Source: Stramenopiles sp. TOSAG23-3
Taxonomy: Eukaryota
Length of the DNA stretch: 33,820 nucleotides
Direction of reading: 5' to 3'
Assembly (NCBI GenBank): GCA_900128585.1
Contig: LT642207.1
Coordinates: 1-33,820 of the forward strand
The notes under the pieces are model-generated. The model saw only the letters and a list, made by a program, of their open reading frames with translations. It searched no databases and had not been told where the DNA came from. Shown piece by piece: positions 1-33,820 of this stretch; the first letter of the stretch is position 1; each line of letters begins with the position of its first letter. A program made the translations under genes and the position numbers.

Positions 1-197
1 TGGCATAGTCCATTGGCAGGGCCGTTGGGAGATAGGCACGGAATACCCGGAGCCCTGATGCTATGGACTTGGCGACCCCATTCAAGATGTCCCGTTGGAA
101 GATTCGCATCCGCCAATCCATCCATCTCTGGCGGGCTACTATGTAGCTAAAGCTTCCACCGGAGAGCGGGGTGGGGAACTTTATTTCCGCGAGACGG
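1..197 (-). mobile_element. Fragment of CRE-like non-LTR retrotransposon (end of putative restriction-like endonuclease region), runs off window start
   Basis: Reverse strand reads RLAEIKFPTPLSGGSFSYIVARQRWMDWRMRIFQRDILNGVAKSIASGLRVFRAYLPTALPMDYA, colinear with HLAAIKSPTPITAGSLSYLAARQRWPAWWMRIFQRNILNLVAKSIESGIRIFNALAPTALPMEYA at ~17557-17752 (+). Confidence 0.7.
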
Positions 198-489
198 TTT
201 ATTACATTGTTTTTAACATTTATCCTATTTTATTTCTGTTTTTACTCTTTGTCTGTAAATATATTTCCCAGAAAACCCTTATTAGTTTGTAGCTTAGTCG
301 GATTTTTAGGGTAAATCTTCTGTTTTGGACTTCTTTCCTCCTCTCTCCAATGAATACACACTATCGGTTAAATAATATACAAGTAGCATCGGTTAAAATT
401 CAAACATTGGTTAAATTTCAAGCGATTCGTAGCCGTGAACCTCTCATACTAATTGTCTTTCTCGAATTATTTTATTAATTCGTGCCATC

Positions 490-1365
490 TTACAAACGCT
501 CACTGTTGGGTTTACGTTTTAAGCCTTTAATTCTTCGGGTTTGGATTTTCTCTAAATCCTGTTTTTCCACATGGATTCTACCAACTTTTTCCCCGGATAC
601 TGTGTCTACCGAAACATTTTTTCGTCGCCTGTTGCTAGTACCAGAAAGATTAGCATAAGCTTGTCTTTTCAGCAAATCACTTGCATGGAGAGTGCGCCTC
701 ACGGCAAATTCCACTTTTGGACCTGTTGGTAATAGTTCTATACGGGGAAGAGGGCTTCTAGTTTGGTGATAGGATGTAGTGTAACACATCAAATGCAAAG
801 ATTTTTCTCCATCTGTCTTCTCAAGCACTGTGCATACTATAACACGGTCTAAACCAGCCAAATTGATGCGGTCGACAACATCGCCACGAAATACGTCTAA
901 GAGTGTGTTTTTCACTTCAGCATACATATGATCTTCTTCAAATTCACGGCCTATAAAAATAAAGCAGGGTTTTCCACCAGGCATAATCTTTTGTTTAAAA
1001 TTGTCCATAGGCACAAAGGCTAGAATGCCCAGCTCGATAGCATCTAGGATCTTTGAATCAAATACGCGCCCCAACGTTAAATTGTGCGGTCTTTTTTTGG
1101 TGTGAGTTGCGAACGCAAACGAGCCAGCATTGTTTTTCTTACACAGAAACTCAAGGTTTGATGTGTTTTCAAAGACATTTACTTCGTTCTTTCTGGAAAA
1201 CAAAACCCCATGTGGTTTTGATAAAACAAAAAGTTCTTTCAGCACAGATATAATGAAGCTGCTGGTTTTCCTGCCACGAATAAACAAAGTCCTTTTACAG
1301 GACTCATTCGTGCCCGCGGCTTTAGATAGGCCTTTTGCATTTCGAAATCGTTTTTGTGCTCGCAT
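490..1365 (-). CDS. RPF2: Ribosome production factor 2 (Brix domain)
   Basis: 291-aa ORF with Rpf2 motifs KKRPHNLTLGRVFD, KPCFIFIG, LAGLDRVIV, LPRIELLPTGP and C-terminal GEKVGRIHVEKQDLEKIQTRRIKGLKR. Confidence 0.95.
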   Translation of the reverse strand: MRAQKRFRNAKGLSKAAGTNESCKRTLFIRGRKTSSFIISVLKELFVLSKPHGVLFSRKNEVNVFENTSNLEFLCKKNNAGSFAFATHTKKRPHNLTLGRVFDSKILDAIELGILAFVPMDNFKQKIMPGGKPCFIFIGREFEEDHMYAEVKNTLLDVFRGDVVDRINLAGLDRVIVCTVLEKTDGEKSLHLMCYTTSYHQTRSPLPRIELLPTGPKVEFAVRRTLHASDLLKRQAYANLSGTSNRRRKNVSVDTVSGEKVGRIHVEKQDLEKIQTRRIKGLKRKPNSERL

Positions 1366-1640
1366 CGACTATTTAGGTAAACAGTTTATGTGTTGAATTG
1401 GTTGAGAATTGTTTGGTAGGATGTGAATGCGGCCGATAGAGCATCACATGCATTTTTATGGTGTAGACAATTGGGTTGCAATGGAATGCCCGAGCCCTCG
1501 TTCGCCAAGTTTGTACTTGTGGGAAATCCTGTACTAATCTTGTGCGAGGTGAGGTGTCCGCCCCCGCCCCGAACACTAAATTTTTATTTTTTTAAGGTTT
1601 TATGCGTATTTAAGTACAATTACAAATCCAATCAAATAGA

Positions 1641-1946
1641 ACCCTTCGGGGACGCCTTGCAGGGGCCCTTCCTATAATTTACCTAATTGTCGATGGAATG
1701 GGAGGAGCCGCTCGTGGGTGCTGCTAATTCTCGTATGGACACAGCATTCTTCGCCTGCTCACACCCACTCAGGCAATTATTACTGATAGGCTATTATACT
1801 TAATACACTACATTATTCTGGCCTGAGTGTAGAGTTATCCATCCAAATGTTTCTGTGTCGCTGTGAAGACTTTAGAATCTCTACGAGTGGCTCCTCCACA
1901 ATTAGGTATTTTATAGAAATAGGCCCTACCAGGCGTTTCGAAGGGT
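1641..1946. repeat. Imperfect inverted repeat, arms 1641-1715 and 1883-1946
   Basis: acccttcggggacgccttgcaggggcccttcctataatttacctaattgt...gaggagccgctcgt matches the reverse complement of acgagtggctcctccacaattaggtattttatagaaataggccctaccaggcgtttcgaagggt; a third copy lies at 14571-14695. Confidence 0.8.
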
Positions 1947-2369
1947 CATTTCATTATACTTAATTTTGTTGTAACCCTAACTACCTCGCATAAGATTAGA
2001 GGATTTCCCTCGTATTTGTTACTGTTATTTTGTATTCTTTCTTATTCGTTACAGTAGTTTGGTTTGACTTGTCGATTTAGTGTACCTGGGTTTTTAATGA
2101 ACAGTTTCTCTTTTTTCTGGTTGAGAGCTTCTGGGCTAATAATTTAAATTCCACAGCCGCAAAATCTGATTTTTGTGGACAGGTCTCCACCAACAGATTT
2201 GACCAGCACAAAGTTTATGTACGAGTAAAACACAACTATTTTCCTTAAGCGCACCTGCTCATATTTTTTTCAGTAACATTTTATAGTCGTCTACTAAATT
2301 GCTGTTATTTTCGTATTTAAAAATTATTACTGAAGAAGACGGCAATGTTGAGAGAGAGAGCTGAAAAAA

Positions 2370-2914
2370 TCGCAAAATCTTTAAATATTGTACTTGTAAT
2401 ATTTATACTATATATATTGGTATAGTGAAAATAAACTAAACCATTTTTTGTGAAATAAAAAAATAATTCAATGCTATTTCTATGTATTAGTTAAAACTCA
2501 CTATAATGGTGTGTTGCTGTACTGATATTTCCTATTTTTAGGTGTGATATCTTAACCAAGTTCCACCGATTGTGAAAAGTACAATATTTATTTTTTTGGT
2601 GAAGTATACAGGCGCTGGTTTGCTTTTTTTTTACCATTTTGAATTAACCAGCAAATTCGCCAATAATATCTGTGGTGACATATCATTTTATTTTAACTAT
2701 TGTACTTTTCACAATCGGTGAAGTGTTGGTTTTACATTATTAACGAAAAAAAAGGAATTTTCAGTACAGGAACACATCATTAGGGTGATTTTTAACGTAT
2801 ACATAGAAATAGCATTGAAGTGTTTTTTTATTTCACAAAAAATGATTTAGTTTATTTTCACTATACCAATTTATATAGGCTAATATAACAAGTACGGTAG
2901 TTTAAAGTTGTTCG
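2370..2914. repeat. Long foldback (MITE-like), arms ~2370-2587 and ~2697-2914
   Basis: attggtatagtgaaaataaactaaaccattttttgtgaaataaaaaa...ttcaatgctatttctatgtat...caccgattgtgaaaagtacaata is mirrored on the other strand; spacer ~110 nt. Confidence 0.88.
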
Positions 2915-3180
2915 AAACACATATTTCATCCTCTCTTCTTTCATCATAGAAGTAGCATTGAGTTTCAGATAGAATTATCAATATGATGAGGATGAAGTCC
3001 TCGTAGTGCGAATGTATTTCTAGATTTTTCTTCTTTTTGTTTATGCTGTGTTTATATAAATACGAAATCATAAAAAAATCAATTTAATTTCTTATTATTT
3101 GGAAATGAACGATTTGCATTCAATGCTAAATGATGTTGTTTGTCAATTTGAACGTGACGCTGCATCCCCCTTAATATATA

Positions 3181-3217
3181 TAAAACCAACATTTCACCGA
3201 TTGTGAAAAGTACAATA
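3181..3217 (+). repeat. Extra partial copy of the 2370-2914 foldback arm
   Basis: taaaaccaacatttcaccgattgtgaaaagtacaata closely matches the reverse complement of ~2698-2734. Confidence 0.75.
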
Positions 3218-3661
3218 ATTTTTAGACTTTATGAATACTAGACTGAGGTGGATGCACCAGAATTTAGCAGGGGATCTCCCTCTTATTTGAAATAAGAGCC
3301 TCTTATTTCTCTAATGGTGTGTAGTATTACTGTTATAACTGCTGTGTTATGTAAAAAGCAAAACTCTTATTTGACCCATGTACTAGTTTGTATATTAAAA
3401 ACCATTCATAGGAGTCCGAATATGAAGGAGGAAATTAATCAGACCCCTACGAAGAATGTTTTTTGGGTACGATAGGACGTGCTATATTACATTGAAAACC
3501 AACCAATTATACGGCGCAGTTGTAATGTGCAAAATTTTAGCATTTTGCAGCATGTTCTGAAAATCGCAGTAATTTTGTACTTATGAAAGGCAGCTAGTGC
3601 GACTTAAACTAGTGAGAAATCGGCATAGTGTTCGACAGTCAATCGTGCATCGAGGCTACAA

Positions 3662-4966
3662 ATGCCATTGAAAAAAACAGCTGTTTCCAAACGGAAAGCG
3701 GGCCCTGAAAATGATGACCCTTGCCAAAAGAGGGGGGAACCGACACCGCGTTTTGGGACAAACCGTTGTTTTGATGAGAAAAAATATGGACTTGTGAAAG
3801 CTTCTTCGCTTCCTTTTGGGTACCCCAACACGCAAGTTTCACCGTTTGTTTTTACTTGCAGCCCAATGCTGGTGCAAATTATAGGGAGCCGTCGCGATAT
3901 TGGAATATACATATTTTCCTGGCTAGAAGCAAGTACTATGGCAAGATGTCAATGTTTATCGAAGTCATTTTACCAGGCTCGAGAAAACCGGGAAGGTTTT
4001 GTAGAAGCTGCCGCCAAGATTACACCTAAGCTTCGGGGATATCGGTACGCTGATGTGGTAGGTGTACAGATTTCTCGTGGCATTTGTGTGACACAGGCAC
4101 TGAGTGTTTTAGAAGCACTAATTGTACCACTTCTATATCTAGTCGGCGGCTACAATCCCCGTCGCCTACAAACGCAGCGAACCGTAAAGCGTTTTTTGCC
4201 TTGGCTTAATAACTATAAGTTATTAGCACCACTCATAACACCACGAAGAGAATTGGGCGCATGCTTGGTTGAAAATCAACTGTATGCGGTCGGGGGGGTT
4301 TACGGTTTGAACGCATTATCTTCAGTAGAGCGATATAACCCCGTGAAAAACATTTGGCAAGAATGCGGGCGAATGAAATATGCGCGTCGTGCGTGTGCGG
4401 TAACGGCTCTAAATGGAAAAGTATACGCAGCCGGCGGGTTTTCCCGTGCAAAATCTATGAGTGAAGTTGAGCGATTCGATGCAACTCGAAACAAATGGGA
4501 GGCAGTTGCAAGTATGAATTCGGAACGATCAGGATGCTGCGCTGCGGCCACTCAAGGTTTTGTTTATGTACTTGGTGGAGGTAACAATTCAAAAAAAAAT
4601 GATAATACATGGGCATTCTCAAGCGTAGAAAAGTACAACGTTGCTGAAAATAAATGGGAGTATGTTGCAGAAATGAAGCACTCCCGGCGTGGTGCTATGG
4701 CTGCCTCCATTGGAAGTAAAATTTACGTACGTGGCGGCAAAAACAACAGAAATGAGGATGTCTCGGAAATTGAATGTTACGATCCAAAATCCAACAATTG
4801 GATGGTCGTGGAACACATAGAGCCTCCGCCACATTGTGATGTATTTGAAAGGCGGCTACTAATGGAATTTGAACGAGCAGATGGTGTTGAAATGATTGAT
4901 GGAATAGCAGCATCTGGGTGTTTGGCACTGACTCAGAATTTTATTGGGGGTAAACATGCATGCTAA
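3662..4966 (+). CDS. F-box/Kelch-repeat protein
   Basis: 434-aa ORF; F-box-like IGIYIFSWLEASTMARCQCLSKSF followed by five Kelch repeats (LYLVGG, LYAVGG..VERYNP..W, VYAAGG..VERFD..W, VYVLGG..VEKYN..W, IYVRGG..IECYDP..W). Confidence 0.9.
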   Translation: MPLKKTAVSKRKAGPENDDPCQKRGEPTPRFGTNRCFDEKKYGLVKASSLPFGYPNTQVSPFVFTCSPMLVQIIGSRRDIGIYIFSWLEASTMARCQCLSKSFYQARENREGFVEAAAKITPKLRGYRYADVVGVQISRGICVTQALSVLEALIVPLLYLVGGYNPRRLQTQRTVKRFLPWLNNYKLLAPLITPRRELGACLVENQLYAVGGVYGLNALSSVERYNPVKNIWQECGRMKYARRACAVTALNGKVYAAGGFSRAKSMSEVERFDATRNKWEAVASMNSERSGCCAAATQGFVYVLGGGNNSKKNDNTWAFSSVEKYNVAENKWEYVAEMKHSRRGAMAASIGSKIYVRGGKNNRNEDVSEIECYDPKSNNWMVVEHIEPPPHCDVFERRLLMEFERADGVEMIDGIAASGCLALTQNFIGGKHAC

Positions 4967-5069
4967 TTTTTTTTAATAAACCTATAGATAGAATGAAACC
5001 CAAATACTGAAATGATTGTAGGGGAACACACACACCAATAGCCACCAGGGGGGTAATATTCTCAATCGC

Positions 5070-5490
5070 ACCAGGGACGATTGTCCTGCTACATCCAGAG
5101 GACGAGACGGACATGCACGGCTCAGCAGCATGGCCACAGATGCAATCCTACCGAAACAATCGGGTTCACTTGCGCACCAGACTTAAACATGGCGTCCTAA
5201 TGAGCAACCCCGGAGGAGGCATGCACTCGTTTCACAGACAGATAATACAACTACAGAACCACACACATCGCACCTATATCACTGCCTCATAGCACTTCGA
5301 CGACAGCTCTGACTACGAAACCGAACGACAGTCCTCCACGGTCCCACCCCATTACTGATCATCTCGTAAACATTTTTTTGAACAGAAAACGAGCACCTTT
5401 ACCATTTTGAAGCCGCTGTTCATCAAACCGCGCAAGTTCTGGTACAGGTATGAGTGGGACATCGGATAAAGAAGTCAATTATGGGTGGGG
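5070..5490 (+). mobile_element. Degenerate 3' tail of the CRE-like element
   Basis: Aligns with 18963-19480 (-) (gaacagaaaacgagca, cacatcgcacctat vs catatcgcgcctac) and with 14248-14465 and 18282-18500; encodes TIVLLHPEDETDMHGS and MSGTSDKEVNYG (ATG 5450). Confidence 0.65.
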
Positions 5491-6342
5491 ACGGAAGTCG
5501 GTGGAGAACCAAAGATAGAGTTGCTGTGTCTAAACAATTAGTATATAATAACTAATAGGCGTTTTGTAGATAAATACAATTTAAGGTGTATCACTCAATG
5601 TATACTATATAATTTGTTTTCACTCAATGTATTTCGTACAAAAGAATAGGAATTGTACAGAAATATAAATATTATACGAAATCTTGGAGAAAAGGGCGCA
5701 TATCCATCGCACTTGAAAGGAAGCAGTTTTCGAGATTATTTTCAAAGCCCTTTGTGGTTTGCTTTTTCAAAGCGCTTAATTTTGGAGTTTTTTTGTTTTC
5801 TTGTTATTTACCTGTAAGGTATAAAAAATATCTAGGTTTTTTTTAGGTGGATCATTTCAGTTTTATAATATTCCTACTATTTTTGACTGTATAAACGCTT
5901 CTATTCTAAAGAATATTTGAAGGTGATGCAAAAGGTAAAATAATGCATAAAATTAATAGTTTGTCTTTAAATGGTGGCAATACCCTTAACTTAGTTTTGA
6001 TAGATTTAGGGGGATTTCCCCTTTTCATTATTTCCTCCTCATTTAAGTTAGACGACTAAAAAACTAAGCTGAATATCGGTTATTTTTTATGTGATTTTTA
6101 GCTCGAGTGTCTAAGGGGGAAACAAATCGATAAAAACCAAAATGCATACGAAGTAGTGCGCGTTTTAATTTTACGATAAAAAATATAAACAAAGTACTCG
6201 TGAGATTAGTAAAAACAAATATATACGCATTGCATCTCTTGGAAAGAAATAAGAAATCTGATATGAAACCTTAGCATTGCATCGCATGGAAAGTATTCAT
6301 AAGTACCTATACAGCGGCATATATTTTTGTTTTTAGATATAC

Positions 6343-6440
6343 AACCTCTGAATCAGAGTCGTCCAATTTGACCTCCCTCTTCTGTACTTCACTCCTGATA
6401 TCCTCCTCACCGTAATCAACTTCCTCATAATCGCTGCTAT
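6343..6440 (-). mobile_element. Possible further, more diverged CRE-like tail fragment
   Basis: Reverse strand encodes SSDYEEVDYGEEDIRSEVQKREVKLDDSDSEV; gaggaagttgattacgg nearly matches the other tails. Only this short motif aligns. Confidence 0.4.
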
Positions 6441-6627
6441 ATCGTCTAAAACACGACTACCATTTTCCGATTCTGGTACCAAGTATGGTTCACTTAAGGC
6501 TGAAAGGTGGCTGGTATTGTTTTTTTTTTTAAATTGGCCGTATTGAACCTTTGCTGACCTAAACTTTGGAACATTTCTGACGAGCAACATTTCCTGTGCT
6601 CACCCAAAACTCACAATCACTGAAACG

Positions 6628-6737
6628 ATTGTGGAAAATCAAATTGAAATCTGGCCCCAAGAGGTAGTCAACAAATTCTTGAACAAAGCGCATTATAACT
6701 AGGGGCCCTCATTAATCACTCTCCTGCCAAGTTTACT
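6628..6737 (+). repeat. Dispersed repeat, partner at 18790-18903 (-)
   Basis: aatcaaattgaa...ccaagaggt...ttcttgaacaaagcgca...aggggccc...atcact(c/t)tcctg is shared between the two loci. Confidence 0.7.
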
Positions 6738-6816
6738 TATCTAAATTCTAGTTTACAAATGTGCGAAAAGGTAAAAATATGGAGATATTTCTTTTCAGGG
6801 TGTGAAAATGGGAGCC

Positions 6817-8776: not shown

Positions 8777-9064
8777 ATGGCTGAGGTCAACAACGTCTCT
8801 GCAGAGGCGATTACGATAAGGGTCAAAGACCAGGCTGGAGAAGAAACATTTTTCAAAGTAAAGAATACGACAAAAATGTCGAAAGTGTTTGCAGCATATG
8901 CACAACGTAAAGGCGTTCAACAAACGTCGCTCCGTTTTTTATTGGACGGCGAACGTATTACTAATGACGACACACCTAAAACGTTGGAGTTAGAAGACCA
9001 AGACCAGATCGACTGTCTTCTTGAACAATACGGGGGAGTCTCGTTGAGAGTCTCATTTGCCTAA
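8777..9064 (+). CDS. SUMO: Small ubiquitin-like modifier precursor, 95 aa
   Basis: From ATG 8777: ITIRVKDQAGEETFFKVKNTTKMSKVFAAYAQRKG..LRFLLDGERI..DTPKTLELEDQDQIDCLLEQYGG plus the tail VSLRVSFA. Confidence 0.96.
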   Translation: MAEVNNVSAEAITIRVKDQAGEETFFKVKNTTKMSKVFAAYAQRKGVQQTSLRFLLDGERITNDDTPKTLELEDQDQIDCLLEQYGGVSLRVSFA

Positions 9065-9265
9065 TCCTAAAACAGAACTGGGTCGGAAAACCAAAATGCA
9101 TTATACATTTTTAATTTTAAACTGAAAATGAGAGCATATGATCTGTTTCCTAAAGCAAAAACTACACCGCCATATTCGGAAATGCGATTCTTGTCGTCCT
9201 GTTGGGTACTGTCTTTCAGGCGATATATTTTTTTAAAATTTAAAACCCTAATCCAGTTTTTTATC

Positions 9266-10454
9266 AAAAACAAGAAAAATTGGCTGTTATTTTATAATAA
9301 TTAAAATTAAAGAAAAAAGAAGGTGTCAGTTCAAGAACAATATCTCCTCCTATTGCAGATCCTCCCCAAGTTCTGAAGGGGCTCGTTGTCTGTGGTACTG
9401 CTCAATGAAATAATGATCGGTATTGAGTTTGATCATTTCGTGGTCGTATACACATACAGATGTAAGTGTACCTTCTGGGAATCCTAAACGGCTAGGCCGG
9501 TCGGCGATTTCCAGGACATATTCGTATGGCTCTCCAGTTTATCTAAATATTAAACTCTAAGTATTTTTAAAACTTCTTTAAATGTCCCCGGGTGAAGTCA
9601 ACAGGGGTTGTGACGCGAGCAGGAACTTCTTCCGGTGACTCAAGTCAACTCGTTCCACCTGTAATGAAGTTTTTTGACGTTGGTCTTTGTCGTTAGATCC
9701 GCGCTGTGACATTGTCTGATGTGATCCGTTCGCTTCGGTTTGTCCCAGTTCTGCCTTAAAACACAAAATAAAATTTAGACAGAAAAAATTAACCTTAGCG
9801 GTTGTTTAAAATAAAATGAAAACATTTACTTTACATCAAATGGAAACATTTACTTTATAGCGAAAACATAAAGGAGAACAAAACAAAAAGCGAAAAAATA
9901 AATGAAATTAGAGGTAACAAATGAAAATATTTACGTTACAATCAAATGGAAACATTTACTTCATATTTTTTAGATTAACTGAATTGTTTTTTTTTTAAAT
10001 AATAAAGTAGTCAATTGTAGTTTTGACCAGAACTTGGGGGATACATACGAACACGTCCTGGGCATTGTTGATCGGCTGAGCCATCTAGGATTCCCAGAAT
10101 ATAAACTTACATATGTATGTGTATACGAACAAGATCAATTCCACTACTAATCATGCTTTCGAAGATTCAATGAGTAGAAACCGATCACCTTCAAAAACAT
10201 TATTTTGCCGCTGCTGAGTAGTCAATTGGAGCTTTGATCAGAACTTCGGGGAGACATACGAATACATCCCGGAGAATGTTAATCGGCTGAGCCGTTTATG
10301 ATTCCCAGAAGGTACAATTACATCTGTACGTGTACACGACTTGACCAGAAATTGGGAAAGATCTGCAAAAGGAGGAGATTTTGTTCTTGAACTGACACCC
10401 GTTTTATCTTTTTATATTTTTAAATACCTAAACAACAGCTATTATTTTTTTATT
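9266..10454. repeat. ~1.2-kb foldback, arms ~9266-9540 and ~10240-10454
   Basis: ggtgtcagttcaagaacaatatctcctcctattgcagatc and gtcgtatacacatacagatgtaagtgtaccttctgggaatcctaaacggct are mirrored on the minus strand; the outer ends carry the TTGGCTGTT motif (right copy degenerate). Confidence 0.85.
10006..10345 (+). repeat. Direct duplication of ~125 nt (10006-10130 and 10217-10340)
   Basis: agtagtcaattg..tttga(c/t)cagaactt.ggg.a.acatacgaa...atcggctgagcc...attcccagaa occurs twice about 210 nt apart. Confidence 0.8.
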
Positions 10455-10912
10455 AGCAGGAAACTTAATTTACAACAATGACATTTTTGACGTGATATTC
10501 AGGGATTTCCAATCACAAGAAGGAGGTTTAATCTACATGAAAGGAATTCGAATTGAATCATAGGCAGGTTTCTCAAGGGATTTACATGGCAACTCCAGCA
10601 CAAATTGAGGTTTATCCAAAGGTACTCACTCCTTCGAAATGGAATACCGCAGGAACTTCACCTCAGGGGAGACGCACTAACAGACAATAAACCCACAATT
10701 GGCAGGGGGCATGATCCTGGACATTTAACTTTTCAATGTAGGCTAACCCTACTTTTATTGTAAGTATAAGAACTCGTATTGTGTGGTTCCAGATAAATAA
10801 TGTACTAAAAATTAATAAATTCAAAATTAAATATGTTTGATGGGAACAATGGTACAGTAACACTGTTTTGCTGTTGAAAGTTATTTAGTTATCCAAGCAC
10901 ATGAGTACATTT

Positions 10913-13227: not shown

Positions 13228-13286
13228 ACATCTTCTCAAATTTATGGGGTAATTTTGGTTCTAACTATTCGGTCCATGCAATACAC

Positions 13287-13928: not shown

Positions 13929-14547
13929 AAAACAAGAAAATTGGCTGTTATTTAAGTAATTAAATTTAGCTTCGTCGTACCCTAATCCTAACTTGGTTCT
14001 GTATTTTTTTTTAAAGATTTAATAAAAACAAGAAAAATTGGCTGTTGTTATTTAATAATCGTAAAAAAAAGAGTATAAACAGCCAATTTTCTTGTTTTTA
14101 AGAGTATAACCAGGAGATGCGATATGATAATAAGTACATTAAATAACAGCCAATTTTCTTGTTTTTAGTATCATTAAAACAAGAAAATTGGCTGTTATTT
14201 AAGTAATTAAAATTTATGTACTGCTTCAGTAAATAATTAAGTATATTCGACCCTCTCCCGACACCTCAACTCACAAACGATAATTCCCTGACTGGTTCAC
14301 AAGACAGACGACGAGCACCTTTTAAACATTCACGCCGCTGCTTGGTAAACCGCACAAGGAATGATCCACATATATGAGTGAGACATCGGATGAGGAAGTT
14401 GATTATGGGTCTCCTGACATCGACGCAATTCCACACACTGATTCGGATCATGCATGGGTGTATTGATTTACTAAAATCACAACAGCAAAGATCAGTTCTT
14501 AGTACATTAATTTTAATTACTTTAATAACAGCCAATTTTTCGTTTTT
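13929..14547. repeat. Cluster of six copies of AAAACAAGAAAATTGGCTGTT(ATTTAAGTAATTAAAATT)
   Basis: Copies at 13929(+), 14024(+), 14078-14099(-), 14139-14166(-), 14176-14224(+), 14501-14547(-). Confidence 0.9.
14248..14465 (+). mobile_element. Short 3' tail fragment of the CRE-like element
   Basis: Colinear with 18282-18495 (ctcccga.acc.ca.c.cacaaa, acaagaca, tatgagtgag.catcgga.gaggaagttga.ta.ggg, gattcggatcatg); encodes MSETSDEEVDYG from ATG 14374. Confidence 0.75.
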
Positions 14548-17010: not shown

Positions 17011-17392
17011 GAGGCTTTTTATCTTTCGGGTTATGAGGAAAGACGACAGCTGAAACGTGCATAAAAAACACCTCTCACTAATTAAGTTTTTCAAAACCAA
17101 AGTTTCTCTCTGTGCTTATTCATTTTGAATGCAACAGGAACATCGCCCTGTTTGCTGCTAAGTGCAACTTGTCAATTGGAATCTAGGTTCCAATTAAATT
17201 CATTTTCAGTGCGCATAGGAGTGCCATTGTCATCATTCTCACTATATCCATCTAGTTCAGCCTCCGCCGACTTTTGAATTATCGAAGGAAGATACGCGTG
17301 TAAATTTACTTCGGCGTATTCTTGGACCCACTGCCTACTGCATTCTCCAATCTACCACCCCAATTATTTAAGAAAAAAACATATTAGGTTTA

Positions 17393-18519
17393 AAATACGC
17401 GCAAGCATGGAATGATTTCAGAGAGAACGATGACAACGCGGGAGCGCTTAACATCTTGAGACACCTGGACCCTGCCCGTGATGGCGCCCCCAAAATAGCG
17501 TTTTTTTGGGATGTGCCTCAGTGGGGCTTTCTCAGGGGGGGAACAAGCCCTCTTCTACCACCTTGCGGCAATAAAGTCCCCAACCCCGATCACCGCCGGT
17601 AGCCTCAGCTACCTAGCAGCACGCCAGAGATGGCCAGCTTGGTGGATGCGAATCTTCCAGCGGAACATACTCAACTTGGTCGCCAAGTCCATAGAATCAG
17701 GCATCCGGATCTTCAACGCCTTAGCCCCAACAGCCCTGCCAATGGAGTACGCCGCCGAAGTAGCCGACACCGTGCCCCTCATTCGGCACCCCCAAGGCTT
17801 GGACCCCGACAGCTCGGAGTCCGAGACGGAACCGCAAAGCTCGGGGGACGAGCAATCCAGTAGTGAGCACTCCAGTAATGCCCCGACTCTAATTGTGTCA
17901 CTCTCGGACGACGACACCGAAGTACAATCCTCAATAAAATCCAGTAGTGAGCACTCCAGTAATGCCCCGACTCTAATAGTGTCACCCTCAGATGACGACA
18001 CAGGAGTACAATCCTCAATGCAATCTGCAGATGACAGGACGCCGGGCAGGCGCCTACGCCCTAGTAGACGACGACGATGCTCACGCCCAATCGCTACCCT
18101 CGGATTCATCGACCCTATCGGTGTCATCATCGGACGAAGCGGACGGGGGGGAGGAGTAAAGGGACCAGAACATCGCCAGCAGGACGAGATACCAACTAGC
18201 CCGCCGAAGCACCACAACCTCAGCATTGCACACAAAATCTTCACCATCGCAACAGAACTCACAAATGCCGATTACGAATACCGACCCCCTCCCGATACCC
18301 CAGCCCACAAATGACAAGTCCTTGACTGATTTACAAGACATATAATGAGCATCTCTAAAACCTTCATGCTGCTGCTTGGATAATCACACAAGGATTGTTT
18401 CATCTATGAGTGAGGCATCGGACGAGGAAGTTGACTACGGGCCATTTGAAATCGTCGCAAATCCAAACACCGATTCGGATCATGGATGGAGTACATCAGG
18501 GAATGATAGTCTAGACTAA
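17393..18519 (+). mobile_element. 5'-truncated, degenerate CRE-like non-LTR retrotransposon (putative endonuclease C-terminal part plus low-complexity tail)
   Basis: GC-rich block. KYAQAW...KIAFF|GMCLSGAFSGGEQALFYHLAA...RIFQRNILNLVAKS (one extra T in the T7 run at 17501-17507) resembles the post-KY part of restriction-like endonucleases of CRE/R2-type elements. An S/D/P-rich tail follows, ending MSEASDEEVDYG...SLD*. The catalytic PD-D and zinc knuckle are not visible. Confidence 0.7.
17854..18019 (+). repeat. 84-nt in-frame tandem duplication within the element tail
   Basis: aatccagtagtgagcactccagtaatgccccgactctaat.gtgtcac..tc.ga.gacgacac..gagtacaatcctcaat twice (SSSEHSSNAPTLIVSxSDDDTxVQSS). 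Confidence 0.92.
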
Positions 18520-18650
18520 GTGACAAGAGTAAATCAATAAGGATAATCACAGGAGCAGGGATAAGTTCGCAGTACATGAAGGAAAGTAAACCTTAAATGG
18601 ACAAAATGATCAGATTCAATTTCGCGGTACTGAAGGAGATCATTAATTTT

Positions 18651-18706
18651 AAAACAAGAAAATTGGCTGTTATTTAGGTAATTAAAATTAATGTACTGCG
18701 AACTGA
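18651..18706 (+). repeat. Solo copy of the AAAACAAGAAAATTGGCTGTT motif
   Basis: aaaacaagaaaattggctgttatttaggtaattaaaattaatgtactgc is nearly identical to 14176-14224. Confidence 0.88.
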
Positions 18707-18789
18707 AATCTACTAAAATCATGCAGGCCTTGAGAAGGCTTTACTGCAAGAATTGGTGCTGCCGCTGTGATAATATTTCCACCAGCCAA

Positions 18790-18903
18790 TAGTAACTGAC
18801 AGGAAAGTGATGTTTGCGGGCCCCTGGTTAGATTGCGCTTTGTTCAAGAACTTGTGCCGATGACCTCTTTTGGGATCTGAATTCAATTCGATTCCCAGCA
18901 ATT
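18790..18903 (-). repeat. Dispersed repeat, partner at 6628-6737
   Basis: Reverse complement shares ttcttgaacaaagcgca, aggggccc and flanking blocks with 6628-6737. Confidence 0.7.
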
Positions 18904-18962
18904 TTTATAATTTAGATTAACTGAACTAGGTTCCTTTTCTTACTGCCAGTATTTGTAATCCT

Positions 18963-19480
18963 TTATTTGACTCCATCTTCTCCATAGCTGACTTCTTCGT
19001 CGTCCTTTGTATCCCTCATATCTGAATCGGAATTTGTGTGTTTTTTAGAACAGCCGTTTGTAATTGTTTTTCAAGATGCTCGTTTTCTGTTCGATACATC
19101 ACTCAAGGCATGATCAATAGTGGAATCAAACTGTGCAAGAGTGTCGGTCGGACTAGTGGTCAAAGCCATCGTCGAGGGGCAATGATGGTGGGATGTAGGC
19201 GCGATATGCGGTGGTGTAATTGCATTGTCCTTCCCTGGTTCTATGATTTTGGTCGGCCGGGCCTTTTTCCTTCTGCCGTGAGTATTCTTCTGCAGCTGCG
19301 TGGTCATCTCATCGCGGCTCGTCGTATTCAGGACTTTCCCGTTCCGTCACAGCTCGGGGTCCTGGTGGCGCCGACTCTTCTTGTGAGCTTTGCGGTTCTG
19401 ATTCTGCTGCCGGGCTGTGCGTTTCCATCTCGTCTTCTGAAGTTTACACTACCACCAATCCGCTGTGATCCGCAGGACAT
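18963..19480 (-). mobile_element. Degenerate 3' tail of the CRE-like element
   Basis: gaaccgcaaagctc (EPQSS) is shared with ~17829; colinear with 5070-5490; ends MRDTKDDEEVSYGEDGVK* (ATG 19019). Confidence 0.7.
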
Positions 19481-29800: not shown

Positions 29801-32800
29801 CGTATGAGCCGCAAACTGTTGAAATAGATATCGCAAACAATTTTTCGTCCGACTGCGTGTTTTCTCTGACCCTCACACAGGACCTGCTTGTGAACAATAA
29901 ATGGGAAAAGGCATCACATATTCTGCATGGGCGCCATAAAACAAAGAAACGTGGTGGCTCAAAGAAAAAAACTGGGATTGGGATGCGGAAAAGTGACTCA
30001 AACAAGAAGAGTTCTACTGCTGTTCCCGTTAGTCAACTTCCTGAAGATTTGAAAGAGGCGGCCTTTTTTGCACCTTTCTGGTGCCGGAATTCGTCGGTAA
30101 AAGTAAAATCGAGTGGATCGGCCACAATAACTATGCAATTTCTGCCGTTACAGCCAGGAACTTATAGATGTCAATTGGTTTTTCTTGACGAGAAAGTTGG
30201 TGAAACAATGTACGAAGTCCTAGGAGTGGCCGAAATGCCAAAACCACTCGAATTTTTTTCGTCTGCTATGGATCTGACATCATCTGTGCAACGTCACCTT
30301 TCGATTCCATTTTGCAATGCTCACTTAGACAAAGCGAGAAGTGTTGCAATGGAAAGATATGCTGGTTCAACTCTAAAAAAAATGCGAGATGCACTGAAAA
30401 TGTATATTTTGTCTGAGAAGCCGCCTCAAGTTTTTACTGTGGAATTTAATTCCCCGTTTTATCAGGCGGCCCCTGATTGTACTATAAGTGAGATCAGGGA
30501 AGGTAGTACAAACGCAAAAGCTGTCCTAGCGACTCCCCGTGGGGCAATGGGAGATGGGCAAGGAAGCATCATGGTCAACTTTCAACCGAGTGCGGCGGGG
30601 GAGTATCCGGCTCAGCTGGTGATGCGCTCTCCGTTTGAAGTTCGCGTATACGATTTTTATTTTACAGTCAAAGCCCCCAGTCAGGAGAAGGCGCTAGAGT
30701 TTGGAGCACCGGCTCGCCAGACAATCGTCCAAGACATTCCAATAGTTAATAACAGTGATCAGGATTGGAGTATAGGGGCAAAAATAACAGGTGAAGGATC
30801 ACAACAATTCAAAGGACAGAAAGCTCTCAAAGTCAAGGCAGGCGAGGAAGGCGCCTACAAATTGCAATATAAAGCAGAATGGGTAAGCGAGTCATCTGCT
30901 CAACTTACATTAACAAATGCCACAACTGGCGAAGATTATGTATTTAAACTTTATGGCACTGCGGATGAACCGTTAGCCGAGGAACATGTTCGGATTGAAT
31001 GCCAGGCGCGACAGCGTATATCTCGAAAATTCAGAGTACGAAATGCCACTAAAAGTTCAACGATATTTAATGTAGAATGCGATTTACCTGGCATAAGTGG
31101 TTCGTCAACAATTGAAGTTGGCCCAAACTCTACTGGTGATTATGAACTTTTTTTACGCCCCCTTCTTGGTGGCGAGTATAGTGGAGCAATAACTTTTACT
31201 GCTCCTGATGGATCCTTTACCTGGTACACAATTGAGATTTTTGCTGCAGCTCCAACTTCTGAAGGCAGTCTCGATTTGAAAGCGTTTGTGCGGAAAGCTG
31301 TGGCCGTAGAAATTGGTTTACAGAACCCCTTGGACGAACCTATTGAATTCGAGGTAAAACTGACAGGCCAAGGTCTCCTCGGCGATCCTGTTTTCGTTTT
31401 ATCAGCACAGGAATCTGGAACGTACGAACTGCTGTATTCCCCATTGGTTCCAGTGCAAGAAACTGGTTCGATTGTGTTTGCAAACCAGCGTGTTGGTGAA
31501 GTATGGTACGAACTCAATTTATTGGCGGAATCACCTCCTCCAGAACAATTGCAAGATATGGAGTGCTGTGTAGGACTGCGATCGCGCCAAAAAGTCCAGC
31601 TAGAAAATCCCACTGGGCAGCAAATTCAATTAATTAGTGTTGTTAGCAATCAGCTGAATTTTCGCGCAATACCGAATCAAATTACTGTGCCACCATATGG
31701 TACTGCCGTTGCAGAAGTGGAGTACACACCTTCAAGCATCAACGAGATCCAAAAATCCTCTGTGGTTTTTCGAAACTCAAAACTTGGGGCATGGAAATAT
31801 GTTGTAGAAGGGCGAGGAAATCCACCTTCCACTATGGAAACTGTTGAAGTGTTCTCTCCTATGGGTGTACGGGAATCCGCCACATTTAGTTTCCGGAATC
31901 CTTTTTCTGAAGCTATTTTTGTGAGCGTCAAGATGCATTTTAAAGATGAAGCTTCCAATGGTGCATTTTCTTTGTTGGTAAAGAGTGGTGATATGCGTGT
32001 GGCTCCATTTAGCTCGTTGCAAATCCCATTTATATTTTGCCCTCCTGCTATTTTCGAATACCACGCAACCGTTGAGGTCGAAGCCGACCAAGGAATGTTG
32101 TGGACATTTCCTGTTAAAGGTACTGCAGAAGCTCCTTCTTCAGATGATGCAGTTATTATCTCCACCGCAGCTCGGAAGTCTGTCTCGGAAACAGTGCCAT
32201 TTATTTTACATTCCATAGACCCGAAGGAAGCGAATTCTAGTACACGTTTTGCGCATTCGTTGGTAATTCCTGATGAATATAAAACAATTGTGGAGAAATC
32301 CTTAGTTATCACACAAAATTCCTGTGGCATAACCGATCCGAGTACCCCTTTATCTTACACCTTCAAGTTCAATCCTTTGAAACCTTTTAAAGCAAATTTA
32401 GAATTTATATTGCGAAAAGGTTCGGGGGGACAGTGGCGGTTTCCACTAGTATTACAAGCATCCGAGCCGGCTGTAGATGACGTTATACTAATTGAGGCAA
32501 TGATTAACCAAACTTCAAGTGTCAGTTTCAAACTATCAAACCACTTCAATGCATATTCAGACTTTTCTGCAAAATTTACGCCTGAATCTCCCTACGAGTT
32601 TACGGTGTATCCAAGCGAAGGTGTCTTAGAACCACCTGGAACTTCCGGTACAAGTTTTATTTTGTCCTTTACACCCACTGAATATGGCTGCAATGGTCGT
32701 ACGAAGTGCGCGGTATACCGCCAATATACACTCCGCCAAGTGGGAAAACTGGAATTGATACACGTATGAGCCCTCACCTAACCAAATCGTTAGGAAAATA

Positions 32801-32852
32801 TAAGAAGAAGAATTTTATGAAAGCAAATATGCACTTAAACAAGAACAAATGA
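23878..32852 (+). CDS. CFAP47: Cilia- and flagella-associated protein 47, single exon; frameshift near 32689, natural stop at 32850-32852
   Basis: 2963-aa ORF of repeated ASH/PapD-like domains (MRVFPPVVEF..GLAPGLDV; LDFG..; ITISNPGNAPAEFSW), a calponin-homology region (SNVYSVSEGLLLKWL...NFEEDLKDGSVLCHLL; LYQNLPQYIPKTTIEF) and late VYPSEGVLEP..SFTPTEYG; continuation QWSYEVRG lies in another frame. Confidence 0.9.
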
Positions 32853-33235
32853 ATGATCCGGTGTTGTATGTAAATTTTAAACTCGTGTGCGAAATCCATA
32901 AATGGCAAGGAGAAGAACACAATACAAGTGAAGTAACCACAGATGATATCTGATAATTGCTGCTCTGAAAATAGGGTAGCTCTTATAAATCTCGACTTCA
33001 TTGAGTGGATTCGAGAACTGTTCATTTACATTGGGGCCCAAGAATTCTTACTTTTTATTTATTGTTTTGAGATGCCGACAGAAATAATTGGATTTGAGGC
33101 GCATGCGATGTTTAAAAAACATAAGTTTTTACGAGTTCAGAATTGACAGCCCCAACTCATTTTCTCCACGAAACATGTACGAGATAAATTAAAAACAAAA
33201 TAAAAAACAAATTATATATGATATGTATGTTTACC

Positions 33236-33820
33236 ATGAACAACGAACCCCCAAACATACTAATGTTCAGGAACATGCCGAAGCTAAAAAAAAAGCGCTC
33301 AAGCCACCATGCAAAAATGGGTACCCTCCTGGAATGGCTAGGCTCCGAATGCATCGACACGAATATAGGCAGGGACGACGCTCCCTGCACTATTTCTCCA
33401 TGCACCTCATATTCTTTATGAAGGCGGCGGAGTACAAAATTCCAAAGGACTTCGCCACCGGAGCCGCCAAAAGCTCAGCCCCGAAATGGACGTACGACCA
33501 CCAAATGGAGATGGTCCTACAAGGAAAATGGAGGGAACTCTACACGGCCCTCCTCGACTGGCACCTTTACTGCCAGGTGAACGACCTCTGCCAAGAGCCA
33601 ACAACCTCCCCCAACCAAGGCAACGCCGCCAGAGCCAGGAAGTTCGCAGACGAGGGCCAGCTCAGCCGGGCCGTGGCCGCAATGGAAAACACAGGCCTAG
33701 CGAATCATGCATCGGCAACCGAAGTCCGAAAACTGCACCCCGAAGGAAACCCCATGACGGACGAGGACTGGGAGAACGCCCTCCAGCAACAGCACCGGGA
33801 CCCGACCACCAAATGGCCGC
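33236..33820 (+). mobile_element. CRE-like non-LTR retrotransposon, region just upstream of reverse transcriptase; runs off window end
   Basis: GC-rich; a frame open to the window end (absent from the ORF track) reads VLQGKWRELYTALL...NAARARKFADEGQLSRAVAAMENTGLA...EVRKLHP, the GxWxEL / GxxSRAxxxL / LxxxHP motifs preceding RT in CRE/R2-like elements; probable frameshift near 33380 after FRNMPK. Confidence 0.78.

What the first reader, a model, noticed from the sequence alone, without database searches (positions are those of the whole stretch)
1..33820. CRE-like retrotransposon copies all sit just 3' of protein genes and on the same strand: possible 3'-end-targeted retroelement
Seen: RPF2(-) stop 490 -> copy 1-197(-); Kelch(+) 4966 -> 5070(+); EF-hand(-) 6817 -> 6440(-, weak); actin-like(+) 13227 -> 14248(+); CABLES(+) 17010 -> 17393(+); methyltransferase(-) 19574 -> 19480(-); CFAP47(+) 32852 -> 33236(+). 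Six of the seven gaps are ~100-390 nt. Each convergent interval holds two copies tail-to-tail, while the three divergent promoter intervals (~6.9 kb in total) hold none that I can recognise. Seven of seven co-oriented is 1/128 by coin flip (1/64 without the weak copy). Known: CRE/R2-type elements usually target repeats such as spliced-leader arrays or rDNA, and Dictyostelium TRE3 targets the 3' side of tRNA genes. Inference: this family may be directed to Pol II gene 3' ends or terminators, or antisense and promoter insertions are purged by selection. That the 33236 pre-RT piece belongs to the same family is assumed, since it overlaps no other copy.
Basis: partly seen in the sequence, partly recalled or inferred. 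Interest (0 to 1): 0.85.

Follow-up and report, generated by a model that had tools for sequence, protein, structure and literature searches.

The report
Retroelement confined to gene tail ends

Summary
The repeats are real and form one family. A related metagenome contig (L007) carries a 1748-aa uninterrupted ORF that joins the window's "pre-RT" piece (33223-33820) to the 17387-18625 copy. The ORF has a reverse transcriptase, a CCHC motif and a conserved C-terminal domain. Copies are 5'-truncated and share a U-ending 3' tail. They have 8-12 bp AT-rich target duplications, and some copies are only 24-30 nt long.

The position claim holds in 36 independent loci plus the window. Family DNA lies in 10 of 14 convergent intervals, 8 of 17 tandem intervals and 0 of 16 divergent (promoter) intervals.

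The strand claim does not hold. The first long copy behind a gene's 3' end is sense in 16 of 34 cases in the loci. In convergent intervals "co-orientation" is automatic, so the 1/128 coin-flip is the wrong null.

RNA contigs run from the genes into the copies. AT content and T|AA site density do not differ between interval types, so site sequence does not explain the pattern. Whether integration preference or selection causes it stays open. "CRE-like" was not testable; the endonuclease fold was not confirmed.

The parts
2..226 (-). Copy A: 5'-truncated fragment (full-length ORF residues ~1514-1582), running off the window start; 264 nt behind the stop of the Brix/RPF2 gene (490-1365, -)
   Evidence: blastn 78% to 17557-17753; tblastn to 22 family proteins and to the L007 ORF, 84%; an RNA contig reaches 254
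5062..5560 (+). Copy C: old fragment of the ORF tail plus the start of the 3'UTR, 96 nt behind the Kelch gene stop (4966). RNA contigs from the Kelch gene run through it and stop at 5556/5561
   Evidence: tblastn; nhmmer 5341-5486, E 1e-18; RNA contigs 4234-5556 and 4734-5561 of two studies while a DNA contig runs on (the tool rates this a weak hint)
6330..6440 (-). Copy E (weak): a ~17-nt core of the ORF tail (GAGGAAGTTGATTACGG) on the minus strand, inside the transcribed 3' region of the EF-hand gene
   Evidence: alignment; not found by tblastn or nhmmer; RNA contigs 6270-7264 and 6286-6911
8790..9064 (+). It splits the supposed divergent interval 7314-12094
   Evidence: Pfam Rad60-SLD, E 3e-18; RNA contigs 8720-9253
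9258..9535 (-). Copy of a sister subfamily (variant 3'UTR, same terminal tail at 9266-9290), antisense, 202 nt behind the SUMO stop
   Evidence: blastn to L008, L014, L009, L018 and to the 3'UTR behind the ORF tail in L022; summed depth 1236-1428 against a baseline of about 6
10037..10455 (+). Second copy of the sister subfamily, head to head with the previous one
   Evidence: inverted repeats I5-I7; blastn
13929..14232 (.). Cluster of micro-copies (3' tails only): 13929-13995(-), 14024-14048(-), 14075-14099(+), 14130-14166(+), 14176-14232(-)
   Evidence: motif search, 8 exact matches against 2.7 expected; nhmmer; 13929-13995 matches the L007-type 3'UTR
14246..14547 (+). Copy B: 302-nt insertion (ORF tail, 3'UTR and terminal tail) flanked by an 11-bp direct repeat AATTAAGTATA at 14235-14245 and 14548-14558
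17387..18625 (+). Reference copy: last ~290 codons of the ORF (frameshifted; family stop at 18519; 84-nt internal tandem duplication 17854-18021) and a degenerate 3'UTR. It lies 377 nt behind the cyclin-like (CABLES) gene stop (17010)
   Evidence: tblastn; nhmmer 18291-18652, E 8e-95; RNA contig 16615-17612 spans gene and copy
18651..19480 (-). Copy D: tail to tail with the reference copy, terminal tail at 18651-18674, with a ~105-nt foreign insert (18797-18902). It lies about 94 nt behind the methyltransferase gene stop (19574)
   Evidence: nhmmer 19126-18983 and 18771-18651; blastn; tblastn
33223..33820 (+). Long copy starting at residue 139 of the full-length ORF (5'-truncated, one frameshift near 33380), running off the window end; 454 nt behind the CFAP47 ORF stop (32769)
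   Evidence: tblastn to the L007 ORF, 82% and 98.6%; HMMER hits P0001-P0010

Best explanation
The repeats are copies of one family of LINE-like (non-LTR) retrotransposons of a gene-dense marine protist.

Anatomy. The element has a single ORF of at least 1748 aa. It holds an N-terminal and pre-RT region, a reverse transcriptase, a long linker, a CCHC motif, a conserved C-terminal domain where R2/CRE-type elements carry their endonuclease, and a Ser/Asp-rich tail. The 3'UTR ends in a conserved 30-45 nt tail (...TACTTAAATAACAGCCAATTTTCTTGTTTT).

Shown:
- Copies share this 3' end and are 5'-truncated to any length, down to 24-30 nt.
- Copies are flanked by 8-12 bp AT-rich duplications that begin with A.
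- New copies often land in or beside the tails of resident copies, giving tandem, tail-to-tail and head-to-head clusters.
- Family DNA starts a median 71-156 nt from stop codons. It fills convergent intervals and the 3' side of tandem intervals and is absent from divergent intervals.
- There is no strand rule relative to the gene.
- Gene transcripts run into the copies.

Inferred:
- Insertion is by target-primed reverse transcription at T|AA-like sites, with the tail as the part the enzyme recognises.
- The restriction to the terminator side comes from a preference of integration for gene 3' ends, whichever the strand, reinforced by selection against promoter and coding insertions. I put the integration share at about even odds.
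- Copies that land in 3'UTRs become part of them and may supply the mRNA end.
For: One family and RT:
- L007 ORF 3..5249 has no stop.
- The window pieces map to it collinearly.
- BLASTP to P0007: E 4e-56. P0007 hits RVT_1 at E 1.3e-5, below the curated cut-off.
- hhalign of the family relatives P0039/P0040 to P0041 (PF00078 on record) gives probability 97.5%, E 8.6e-12.
- Atlas: 28 of 30 nearest clusters carry RVT_1.

Common 3' tail and 5' truncation.

Duplications: 8 cases read's output, and for L022's long copy. They include 24-30 nt inserts in L018, L022 and L034.

Nesting.

Position:
- Long copies in the loci have a same-strand gene on the 5' side in 24 of 28 and an opposite-strand gene on the 3' side in 25 of 28. 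Where both neighbours are known: 13 convergent, 3 tandem sense, 1 tandem antisense, 0 divergent.
- Family DNA: 11572, 4070 and 0 bp in 14 convergent, 17 tandem and 16 divergent intervals. Other repeats occupy 5 of 16 divergent intervals, 2145 bp.
- P(no divergent among 14 occupied intervals) is 1.4e-4 under a bp-proportional null.
- AT content and T|AA site density are equal or higher in divergent intervals.

Strand: 16 sense and 18 antisense of 34.

Flanking ORFs are ordinary genes.

RNA contigs: 4234-5556, 4734-5561, 6270-7264, 6286-6911, 16615-17612, 254-1391.
Against: - Endonuclease not confirmed. AlphaFold model mean pLDDT 38. No PDB match for a profile of the domain. hhalign finds only the CCHC stretch, E 0.0037, probability 8.9%. 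Pfam finds no RVT_1 in the L007 protein itself.
- The N-terminus of the ORF is not seen (5'-open), so an N-terminal nuclease or DNA-binding domain in this family is excluded only through relative P0007.
- Three long copies face the 5' end of a real or likely gene: L017, L018, L022b. One is antisense in a tandem interval: L027.
- Nothing here separates integration preference from selection. All copies seen are survivors.
- The loci come from several metagenomes and perhaps several related species.
- Genes were called as ORFs of 150 aa or more, so small genes such as SUMO are missed.
- Sense copies start slightly nearer the stop than antisense ones (median 71 against 156 nt, p 0.045). A weak strand effect is therefore not excluded.
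- The RNA ends inside copies are only the 'weak hint' kind.
Confidence: 0.6

Rival explanations
1. Selection only. The element integrates at AT-rich T|AA sites anywhere, on either strand. In a genome with intergenic spacers of 150-1300 bp, insertions in coding DNA and promoter-side spacers are purged, so only those behind gene ends survive.
For: - Empty spacers are tiny: convergent -149 to 751 bp, tandem 62-595 bp, divergent 427-1285 bp.
- No strand rule.
- The duplications show no specific target sequence.
- Most copies are old (62-78% identity within the window).
- A few copies do sit on the 5' side of genes: L017, L018, L022b.
Against: - Other repeats persist in 5 of 16 divergent intervals (2145 bp) while this family has 0 bp there.
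- Micro-copies of 24-30 nt, which should do little harm, are also missing from divergent intervals, apart from one doubtful 4-edit match at 20908-20928.
- Site density is no lower in divergent intervals.
Confidence: 0.4
2. The element is directed to Pol II gene 3' ends and inserts on the same strand as the gene, or antisense copies are purged.
For: - In the window the first long copy behind a gene end is sense for 6 of 8 genes, 7 of 8 if the weak copy E is counted.
- In tandem intervals long copies are sense in 4 and antisense in 1.
- Sense copies start nearer to the stop (median 71 against 156 nt, p 0.045).
Against: - Independent loci: 16 sense and 18 antisense of 34. With micro-copies, 18 of 40.
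- The window itself has an antisense copy 202 nt behind SUMO.
- Micro-copies in tandem intervals are antisense in 9 and sense in 3.
- In convergent intervals one copy is sense to one gene and antisense to the other at similar distances, for example L031 at 37 and 36 nt.
Confidence: 0.06
3. Self-seeding. The pattern is mostly a by-product of the element's habit of inserting into or beside the tails of resident copies. A few founder copies behind gene ends then grow into clusters, which inflates the apparent preference.
For: - Tandem and nested junctions occur in L001, L002, L004, L006, L007, L009, L010, L014, L028 and the window at 13929-14553.
- The 12-bp duplication of the minus copy in L001 is part of the neighbouring copy's 3'UTR.
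Against: - Counting intervals rather than copies still gives 10 of 14, 8 of 17 and 0 of 16.
- Many loci hold a single copy wedged between two stops: L022, L025, L031.
Confidence: 0.1
4. The short palindromic units are MITEs or DNA transposons with terminal inverted repeats, and the 'retroelement fragments' merely lie beside them.
For: Inverted arrangements of the 40-nt motif occur at 14173-14222/14501-14550 and 9260-9535/10037-10418.
Against: - The motif is always the 3' end of an oriented copy that continues upstream into subfamily-specific 3'UTR and ORF tail.
- Single tails have their own 8-12 bp duplications of varying length.
- The inverted pairs are two copies head to head or tail to tail.
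Confidence: 0.03

Closest known systems
R2 / CRE / NeSL / R4-type non-LTR retrotransposons (restriction-like endonuclease group)
   Same: - Single ORF with the RT in the middle, then a Cys/His motif and a further conserved domain C-terminal to it.
- No APE domain found by Pfam.
- A defined, non-poly(A) 3' end.
- A pre-RT motif and RT homologous to P0041, which has an N-terminal C2H2 finger and a C-terminal CCHC plus PD..D-like stretch (seen by eye; RT homology).
   Different: - These elements insert into one repeated target such as rDNA, spliced-leader genes or microsatellites (abstract start of PMC4640811, seen in the listing). This family sits at many unrelated loci with varied AT-rich duplications.
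- The nuclease core could not be recognised.
- The clade was not tested.
L1-type LINEs
   Same: 5' truncation to any length, target duplications of variable length, and an AT-rich T|A target resembling the L1 TTTT/AA site (the L1 site is recalled, not from a call).
   Different: No poly(A) tail, but a conserved U-ending tail. No APE domain seen. One ORF.
Dictyostelium TRE5/TRE3 and yeast Ty1/Ty3 'safe-haven' targeting
   Same: Gene-dense host, with copies confined to a harmless class of intergenic position (titles and abstract starts of PMC5006619, PMC3159450 and PMC6101501 in the listings).
   Different: Those elements are tethered to Pol III genes at a fixed distance. Here the landmark is the 3' side of protein-coding genes, with variable distance and no strand rule, and active targeting is not shown.
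Transposable elements as donors of mRNA 3' ends
   Same: Host transcripts run into the copies and appear to end in them. The idea is known for mammals (title and abstract start of PMC2553571, listing).
   Different: Here it would concern a large share of genes of a compact protist genome. Poly(A) sites were not mapped.

Membership tests
Non-LTR (LINE-like) retrotransposon | Encodes a reverse transcriptase of the non-LTR type | tested here: met
   - BLASTP of the L007 ORF to P0007: E 4e-56. P0007 hits RVT_1 at E 1.3e-5, under Pfam's cut-off.
- hhalign to PF00078-bearing P0041: probability 97.5%.
- Atlas: 28 of 30 clusters carry RVT_1.
- Pfam finds no RVT_1 in the L007 protein itself.
Non-LTR (LINE-like) retrotransposon | Copies share the 3' end and are truncated at the 5' end | tested here: met
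   Mapping of all copies onto the 1748-aa ORF; common tail
Non-LTR (LINE-like) retrotransposon | Target-site duplications of variable length; no LTRs or TIRs | tested here: met
   8 duplications of 8-12 bp. The inverted motifs are separate copies.
RLE-bearing group (R2, CRE, NeSL, R4, HERO) | CCHC motif and PD-(D/E)xK nuclease C-terminal to the RT | tested here: inconclusive
   - The CCHC stretch aligns in register with P0041: BLASTP E 0.10; hhalign E 0.0037, probability 8.9%.
- The nuclease core was not recognised.
- AlphaFold pLDDT 38, so no fold search was made.
- The PDB profile search gave nothing relevant.
RLE-bearing group (R2, CRE, NeSL, R4, HERO) | No N-terminal apurinic-like endonuclease | tested here: met
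   No Exo_endo_phos hit in the L007 ORF or in P0007, which starts with M about 120 aa before the conserved part. The L007 ORF is 5'-open.
RLE-bearing group (R2, CRE, NeSL, R4, HERO) | Insertion into one specific repeated target sequence | tested here: not met
   The copies lie behind many different genes. The duplications differ in sequence.
CRE clade | RT groups with CRE1/CRE2/SLACS/CZAR in a phylogeny | not testable with these tools
   No reference sequences of the clades were on hand. PDB searches with the family RT gave nothing.
CRE clade | Target in spliced-leader RNA genes | tested here: not met
   No RNA family was found in the window, L007 or L010. The flanks are protein genes.

The most novel reading that the evidence does not exclude
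An R2/CRE-architecture LINE that has given up sequence-specific targets and instead integrates, on either strand, into the termination zones of Pol II genes. This would be a terminator-side safe haven in a gene-dense protist. Its conserved 30-nt U-ending tail would suffice for target-primed reverse transcription, so the genome is peppered with 24-30 nt micro-insertions, and many genes now end their mRNAs inside copies.
Probability: 0.35. Interest if true: 0.75.

Novelty: new variant of a known kind. Interest (0 to 1): 0.5.

Why it matters
Retroelements of gene-dense genomes are known to survive by aiming at harmless sites, chiefly next to Pol III genes. A LINE family confined to the tail side of protein-coding genes would be another such solution if integration preference is behind it. 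It would come from an element architecture that is otherwise tied to single repeated targets.

It also bears on annotating this organism. Much of what lies behind its stop codons is element DNA, some 3'UTRs are built from it, and the tail motif is a handy marker.

If selection alone explains the pattern, the case is an ordinary, though very clean, example of purifying selection shaping transposon landscapes. It also shows that 'co-orientation' counts need a null that respects gene arrangement.

Tried and rejected
I used 39 metagenome loci instead, of which 36 are independent: L011 is the window's own locus, L021 lies within L022, and L037 duplicates L036.
- The word-index search for longer relatives of the 33193-33819 piece found none. 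The Atlas on that piece gave no usable hit.
- My first idea, that the 40-nt motif is a MITE or DNA-transposon end and the 18270-18490 block belongs to it, was dropped. The motif proved to be the oriented 3' end of copies with subfamily-specific 3'UTRs and their own duplications.
- Neighbour-strand counts (24 of 28 and 25 of 28) were rejected as a strand test, because convergent intervals satisfy them automatically. They were replaced by the gene-centred test.
- Endonuclease fold: the model was too poor, so no fold search was run. The PDB sequence and profile searches were empty.
- Rfam found no family, hence no ribozyme, in the window, L007 or L010. The element's true 5' end was not available.
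- Small genes that might rescue the counter-examples L018 and L027 were looked for and not found.
- The 12-nt match that would make 13929-14877 one large minus copy was judged possibly chance and not used.
- Summed contig depth at the tail motif is 28,000-32,000 against about 6 beside it. The tool says this is no copy number, so I use it only as a sign of high multiplicity.
- Parts of the window without RNA cover were not interpreted.
- Three full-text searches listed no LINE family described as confined to Pol II gene 3' flanks. I read only the listings (titles, abstract starts), no full papers and no supplements, so this is weak evidence of absence in print.
Full report
WHAT THE WINDOW IS

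The window is 33.8 kb of about 40% G+C DNA with long, almost intron-free genes. They are:
- a Brix/RPF2 gene, 490-1365(-)
- a Kelch gene, 3662-4966(+)
- an EF-hand-like ORF, 6817-7314(-)
- an actin-family gene, 12094-13227(+)
- a cyclin-box (CABLES-like) gene, 15475-17010(+)
- a methyltransferase, 19574-20431(-)
- a 2963-aa ORF, 23878-32769(+).

Of 24 public runs listed for 12000-20500, 20 hold the stretch or a part of it. These are marine or seawater metagenomes and metatranscriptomes of 14 studies, plus one run of a coded organism. The host is therefore a common marine plankton protist. I did not try to name it.

ARE THE COPIES REAL AND ONE FAMILY?

Self-comparison shows these matches:

| Match | Identity |
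|---|---|
| 2-198(-) to 17557-17753 | 78% |
| 14236-14457(+) to 18271-18489 | 78% |
| 5241-5484(+) to 19229-18982(-) | 67% |
| 5311-5485 to 18270-18441 | 63% |

The ORF 17499-18314 has 27 relatives in the protein collection. Reading them shows that the family ORF runs on in another frame to a common end (...SE.SDEEVDYG...SDH.WST..NDSQD*) at window 18519. The conserved block shared by copies B, C and D is therefore the coding tail of an ORF, not a separate small gene.

An exhaustive HMMER search with the piece at 33223-33819 gave 10 hits. One of them, P0007 (577 aa), runs on into RT motifs (RVT_1 E 1.3e-5, 25.4 bits, below Pfam's cut-off of 29.6).

A scan of metagenome contigs with an alignment of the family gave 39 loci. 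One of them, L007, carries an uninterrupted ORF of 1748 aa (3..5249, open at the 5' contig end). Window 33382-33819 matches its residues 199-344 at 98.6%. The 17387-18447 copy matches residues 1461-1732, copy A matches 1514-1582, and B and C match about 1677-1742.

The window's copy starts at residue 139 of that ORF. The part of L007 before it aligns with the distant relative P0007 (BLASTP from residue 73, E 4e-56), so it is element, not host. The window copy is therefore 5'-truncated.

WHAT KIND OF ELEMENT IS IT?

The RT is divergent:
- Pfam finds no RVT_1 in the L007 protein itself, and PDB sequence searches are empty.
- Its identity rests on the alignment to P0007 and on relatives P0040 and P0041, which carry PF00078 on record.
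- A profile comparison of P0039/P0040 to P0041 gives probability 97.5%, E 8.6e-12 over 162 columns.
- 28 of 30 nearest Atlas clusters carry RVT_1.

By eye, P0041 is a classical zinc-finger, RT, CCHC and PD..D element. In the family, a Cys/His stretch (C.C...H....C, then PHN..ED.L) lies about 550 residues behind the RT. It is followed by a strongly conserved domain (DKRP...NL.TSIP, GNQADGL, HWDVHF, NER.K..KY, GAPKI.LFGMSLSGAFS).

Only the Cys/His stretch aligns with P0041 in register, and weakly (BLASTP E 0.10; hhalign E 0.0037, probability 8.9%). An AlphaFold model of the domain from 13 sequences was too poor to use (mean pLDDT 38), and a profile search of the PDB found nothing relevant.

So the architecture is that of the R2/CRE group and no APE domain is seen, but the nuclease itself is not confirmed. 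The label 'CRE-like' could not be tested, because no reference sequences for an RT tree were available.

HOW IT INSERTS

Across loci and subfamilies with different 3'UTRs, the copies end in the same tail...TACTTAAATAACAGCCAATTTTCTTGTTTT(T), followed in most cases by A-rich flank. This is the 40-nt motif that occurs 8 times exactly in the window against 2.7 expected.

I first took it for a MITE end, because it occurs in inverted pairs. But each unit continues inward into a subfamily-specific 3'UTR. For example, window 13929-13995(-) matches the 3'UTR of L007. nhmmer with a 3'-region profile finds the units as oriented partial copies.

Direct repeats of 8-12 bp flank copies of very different length (and for the long copy in L022):
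- the 302-nt copy B of the window: AATTAAGTATA at 14235-14245 and 14548-14558
- a ~300-nt copy in L001, whose duplication is part of the neighbouring copy's 3'UTR
- a ~220-nt copy in L002
- the long copy in L022
- inserts of only 24-30 nt in L018, L022 and L034.

All the duplications are AT-rich and begin with A. Five-prime truncation to any length, a fixed 3' end and variable duplications are the marks of target-primed reverse transcription.

New copies often lie in or next to the tails of older ones, giving tandem, tail-to-tail and head-to-head groups. Summed contig depth is far higher over the tail (28,000-32,000 at 13971-13977) than over single-copy flanks (about 6) and over the upstream ORF part (22 in 17343-18009). 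The tool warns that this is not a copy number, but the gradient fits heavy 5' truncation.

THE POSITION CLAIM

I dropped three loci: L011 (the window's own locus, 99.9% identical), L021 (within L022) and L037 (duplicate of L036). In the remaining 36 loci and the window I called genes as ORFs of 150 aa or more with little repeat content. I called long copies by tblastn (100 nt or more) and micro-copies by the tail core (up to 4 edits). A sample of the flanking ORFs are ordinary genes: sulfotransferase, GATase/NTP-transferase, EML, ion channel, PP2C, RPL13e, COG3, kinase, Sec24, glycosyltransferases.

Long copies in the loci (54 in all):
- the nearest gene on the 5' side is on the same strand in 24 of 28 cases where one is in view
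- the nearest gene on the 3' side is on the opposite strand in 25 of 28
- where both are known: 13 convergent, 3 tandem sense, 1 tandem antisense, 0 divergent.

By interval, after splitting the window's 7314-12094 at the SUMO gene:

| Interval type | Intervals with family DNA | Family bp | Intervals with other repeats | Other-repeat bp |
|---|---|---|---|---|
| Convergent | 10 of 14 | 11,572 | 8 of 14 | 1,771 |
| Tandem | 8 of 17 | 4,070 | 10 of 17 | 4,545 |
| Divergent | 0 of 16 | 0 | 5 of 16 | 2,145 |

On the uncorrected table, 9 of 15 convergent against 0 of 16 divergent gives Fisher p 2.5e-4. Under a null proportional to non-repeat bp, the chance that none of 14 occupied intervals is divergent is 1.4e-4.

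Family DNA begins very near stop codons, at a median of 71 nt where the first long copy is sense and 156 nt where it is antisense. Gaps are as small as 8, 10, 27, 32 and 37 nt. Empty spacers are tiny: convergent -149 to 751 bp. Many insertions must therefore lie inside 3'UTRs.

Counter-examples exist. In L018 and L022b a copy lies 734 and 670 nt from the start of a gene, in L017 it abuts one, and in L027 it is antisense in a tandem interval. The L018 and L027 neighbours are real genes by Pfam, while the L017 and L022b ORFs had no Pfam hit. No small gene was found in between in L018 or L027. In the first three the other flank is off the contig.

THE STRAND CLAIM

In the window this applies to C, ref and D, and to the weak copy E.

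The fair test is gene-centred: for each gene 3' end with a copy behind it, is the first copy sense or antisense?

| Set | Sense | Antisense | Total |
|---|---|---|---|
| Loci, long copies (p 0.86) | 16 | 18 | 34 |
| Loci, with micro-copies | 18 | 22 | 40 |
| Window, long copies | 6 | 2 | 8 |

A SUMO-like gene at about 8790-9064(+) (Rad60-SLD E 3e-18; RNA contigs 8720-9253) is followed after 202 nt by a minus-strand copy of a sister subfamily, 9258-9535. A plus-strand one follows at 10037-10455.

Micro-copies in tandem intervals are antisense in 9 and sense in 3, and these counts are not independent. A single copy between two stops is sense to one gene and antisense to the other at like distances, for example L031 at 37 and 36 nt.

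What remains of a strand effect:
- 4 sense against 1 antisense long copies in tandem intervals
- the slightly shorter gap for sense copies (p 0.045).

The tail-to-tail pairs in the window fit the element's habit of landing by resident tails. Head-to-head pairs occur as well: L034, L020, and the window at 14176-14547 and 9258-10455.

TRANSCRIPTS

Contigs of three metatranscriptome runs continue from genes into copies with 0-1 differences:
- Kelch, 4234-5556 and 4734-5561, through copy C
- EF-hand, 7264-6270 and 6911-6286, through the E region
- CABLES-like gene, 16615-17612, into the reference copy
- RPF2, 1391-254, up to copy A.

For Kelch and EF-hand, RNA contigs of two studies stop within a few bases of each other, some tens of nt beyond the copy's ORF end, while a DNA contig runs on. 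The tool rates this as a weak hint of an RNA end. So copies are parts of 3'UTRs and may supply the mRNA end. Poly(A) sites were not mapped.

WHY THERE?

Target sequence does not explain it. AT content (0.61-0.63) and the density of TAA/TTA, TTAA and TTTAAA are the same or higher in divergent intervals.

Two explanations remain.
- Integration preference for the terminator side. Other repeats do live in divergent intervals while this family has none. The 24-30 nt micro-copies are missing there too, except one doubtful 4-edit match at 20908-20928. A very abundant element in a genome this dense would be costly if it integrated at random.
- Selection alone. The spacers are tiny, all copies seen are survivors and many are old, no specific target exists, and a few copies do lie on gene 5' sides.

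I cannot separate the two with the data on hand and give them about equal odds. The strand-specific version is unlikely.

COMPARISON AND NOVELTY

The architecture is closest to the R2/CRE group. That group is known for insertion into single repeated targets (abstract start of PMC4640811 in the listing), a feature tested here and not met. Truncation and duplications resemble L1.

Confinement to a harmless class of sites recalls the Pol III-linked elements of Dictyostelium and yeast (listings). Here, though, the landmark is the 3' side of protein-coding genes, and tethering is not shown. Transposable elements as sources of mRNA 3' ends are known in mammals (PMC2553571, listing).

Three full-text searches listed no LINE family described as confined to Pol II gene 3' flanks. 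I read only the listings, and supplements were not consulted.

VERDICT

This is a real, well-defined element family and a real, replicated position bias. The strand rule is refuted and the cause is unresolved. I rate it a new variant of a known kind, of moderate interest.

Noticed in passing
window 8790-9064 (+): An unlisted SUMO-like gene (Rad60-SLD, ubiquitin fold, ending ...EQYGG plus a short extension) with RNA contigs over 8720-9253.
   Followed up: yes
window 2379-2590 / 2694-2907, 21113-21214 / 21370-21471, 14743-14862 / 15050-15167: Three pairs of 84-216 nt inverted repeats (84-94% complementary) of other, unidentified repeat families. Two lie in divergent (promoter-side) intervals where the retroelement family is absent; they look MITE-like.
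   Followed up: partly
window 6628-6729 and 18797-18902: A ~100-nt repeat (75% identical, inverted) that interrupts the 3'UTR of copy D and also lies in the EF-hand gene's 3' region. It belongs to no family I could name.
   Followed up: partly
window 17854-18021: An 84-nt tandem duplication (90% identical) inside the Ser/Asp-rich part of the element ORF. Relatives have one to two such units.
   Followed up: no
window 7449-7514: RNA contigs of three runs skip 64 nt (CT..AC on the plus strand, i.e. GT..AG on the minus strand): a short intron of the EF-hand gene. Contig ends at 7264 and 7338 suggest a second one.
   Followed up: no
P0007 (relative of the element), residues ~15-30: The N-terminus of the distant relative carries ...GIRYGEATHPGPP, faintly like 2A 'skipping' peptides reported at the N-termini of some non-LTR elements (recalled). 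It has H where the motif has N.
   Followed up: no
window 14235-14258 versus 18271-18290: The 5' copy of copy B's 11-bp duplication is itself 9 of 11 identical to the element sequence at the truncation point. This suggests that microhomology between target and cDNA set where the copy was truncated.
   Followed up: no
L031 4653-5151; L030 3868-3892: Extreme crowding: an element fragment lies 37 nt from one stop codon and 36 nt from the convergent gene's stop, and a micro-copy starts 4 nt behind a kinase gene's stop.
   Followed up: partly
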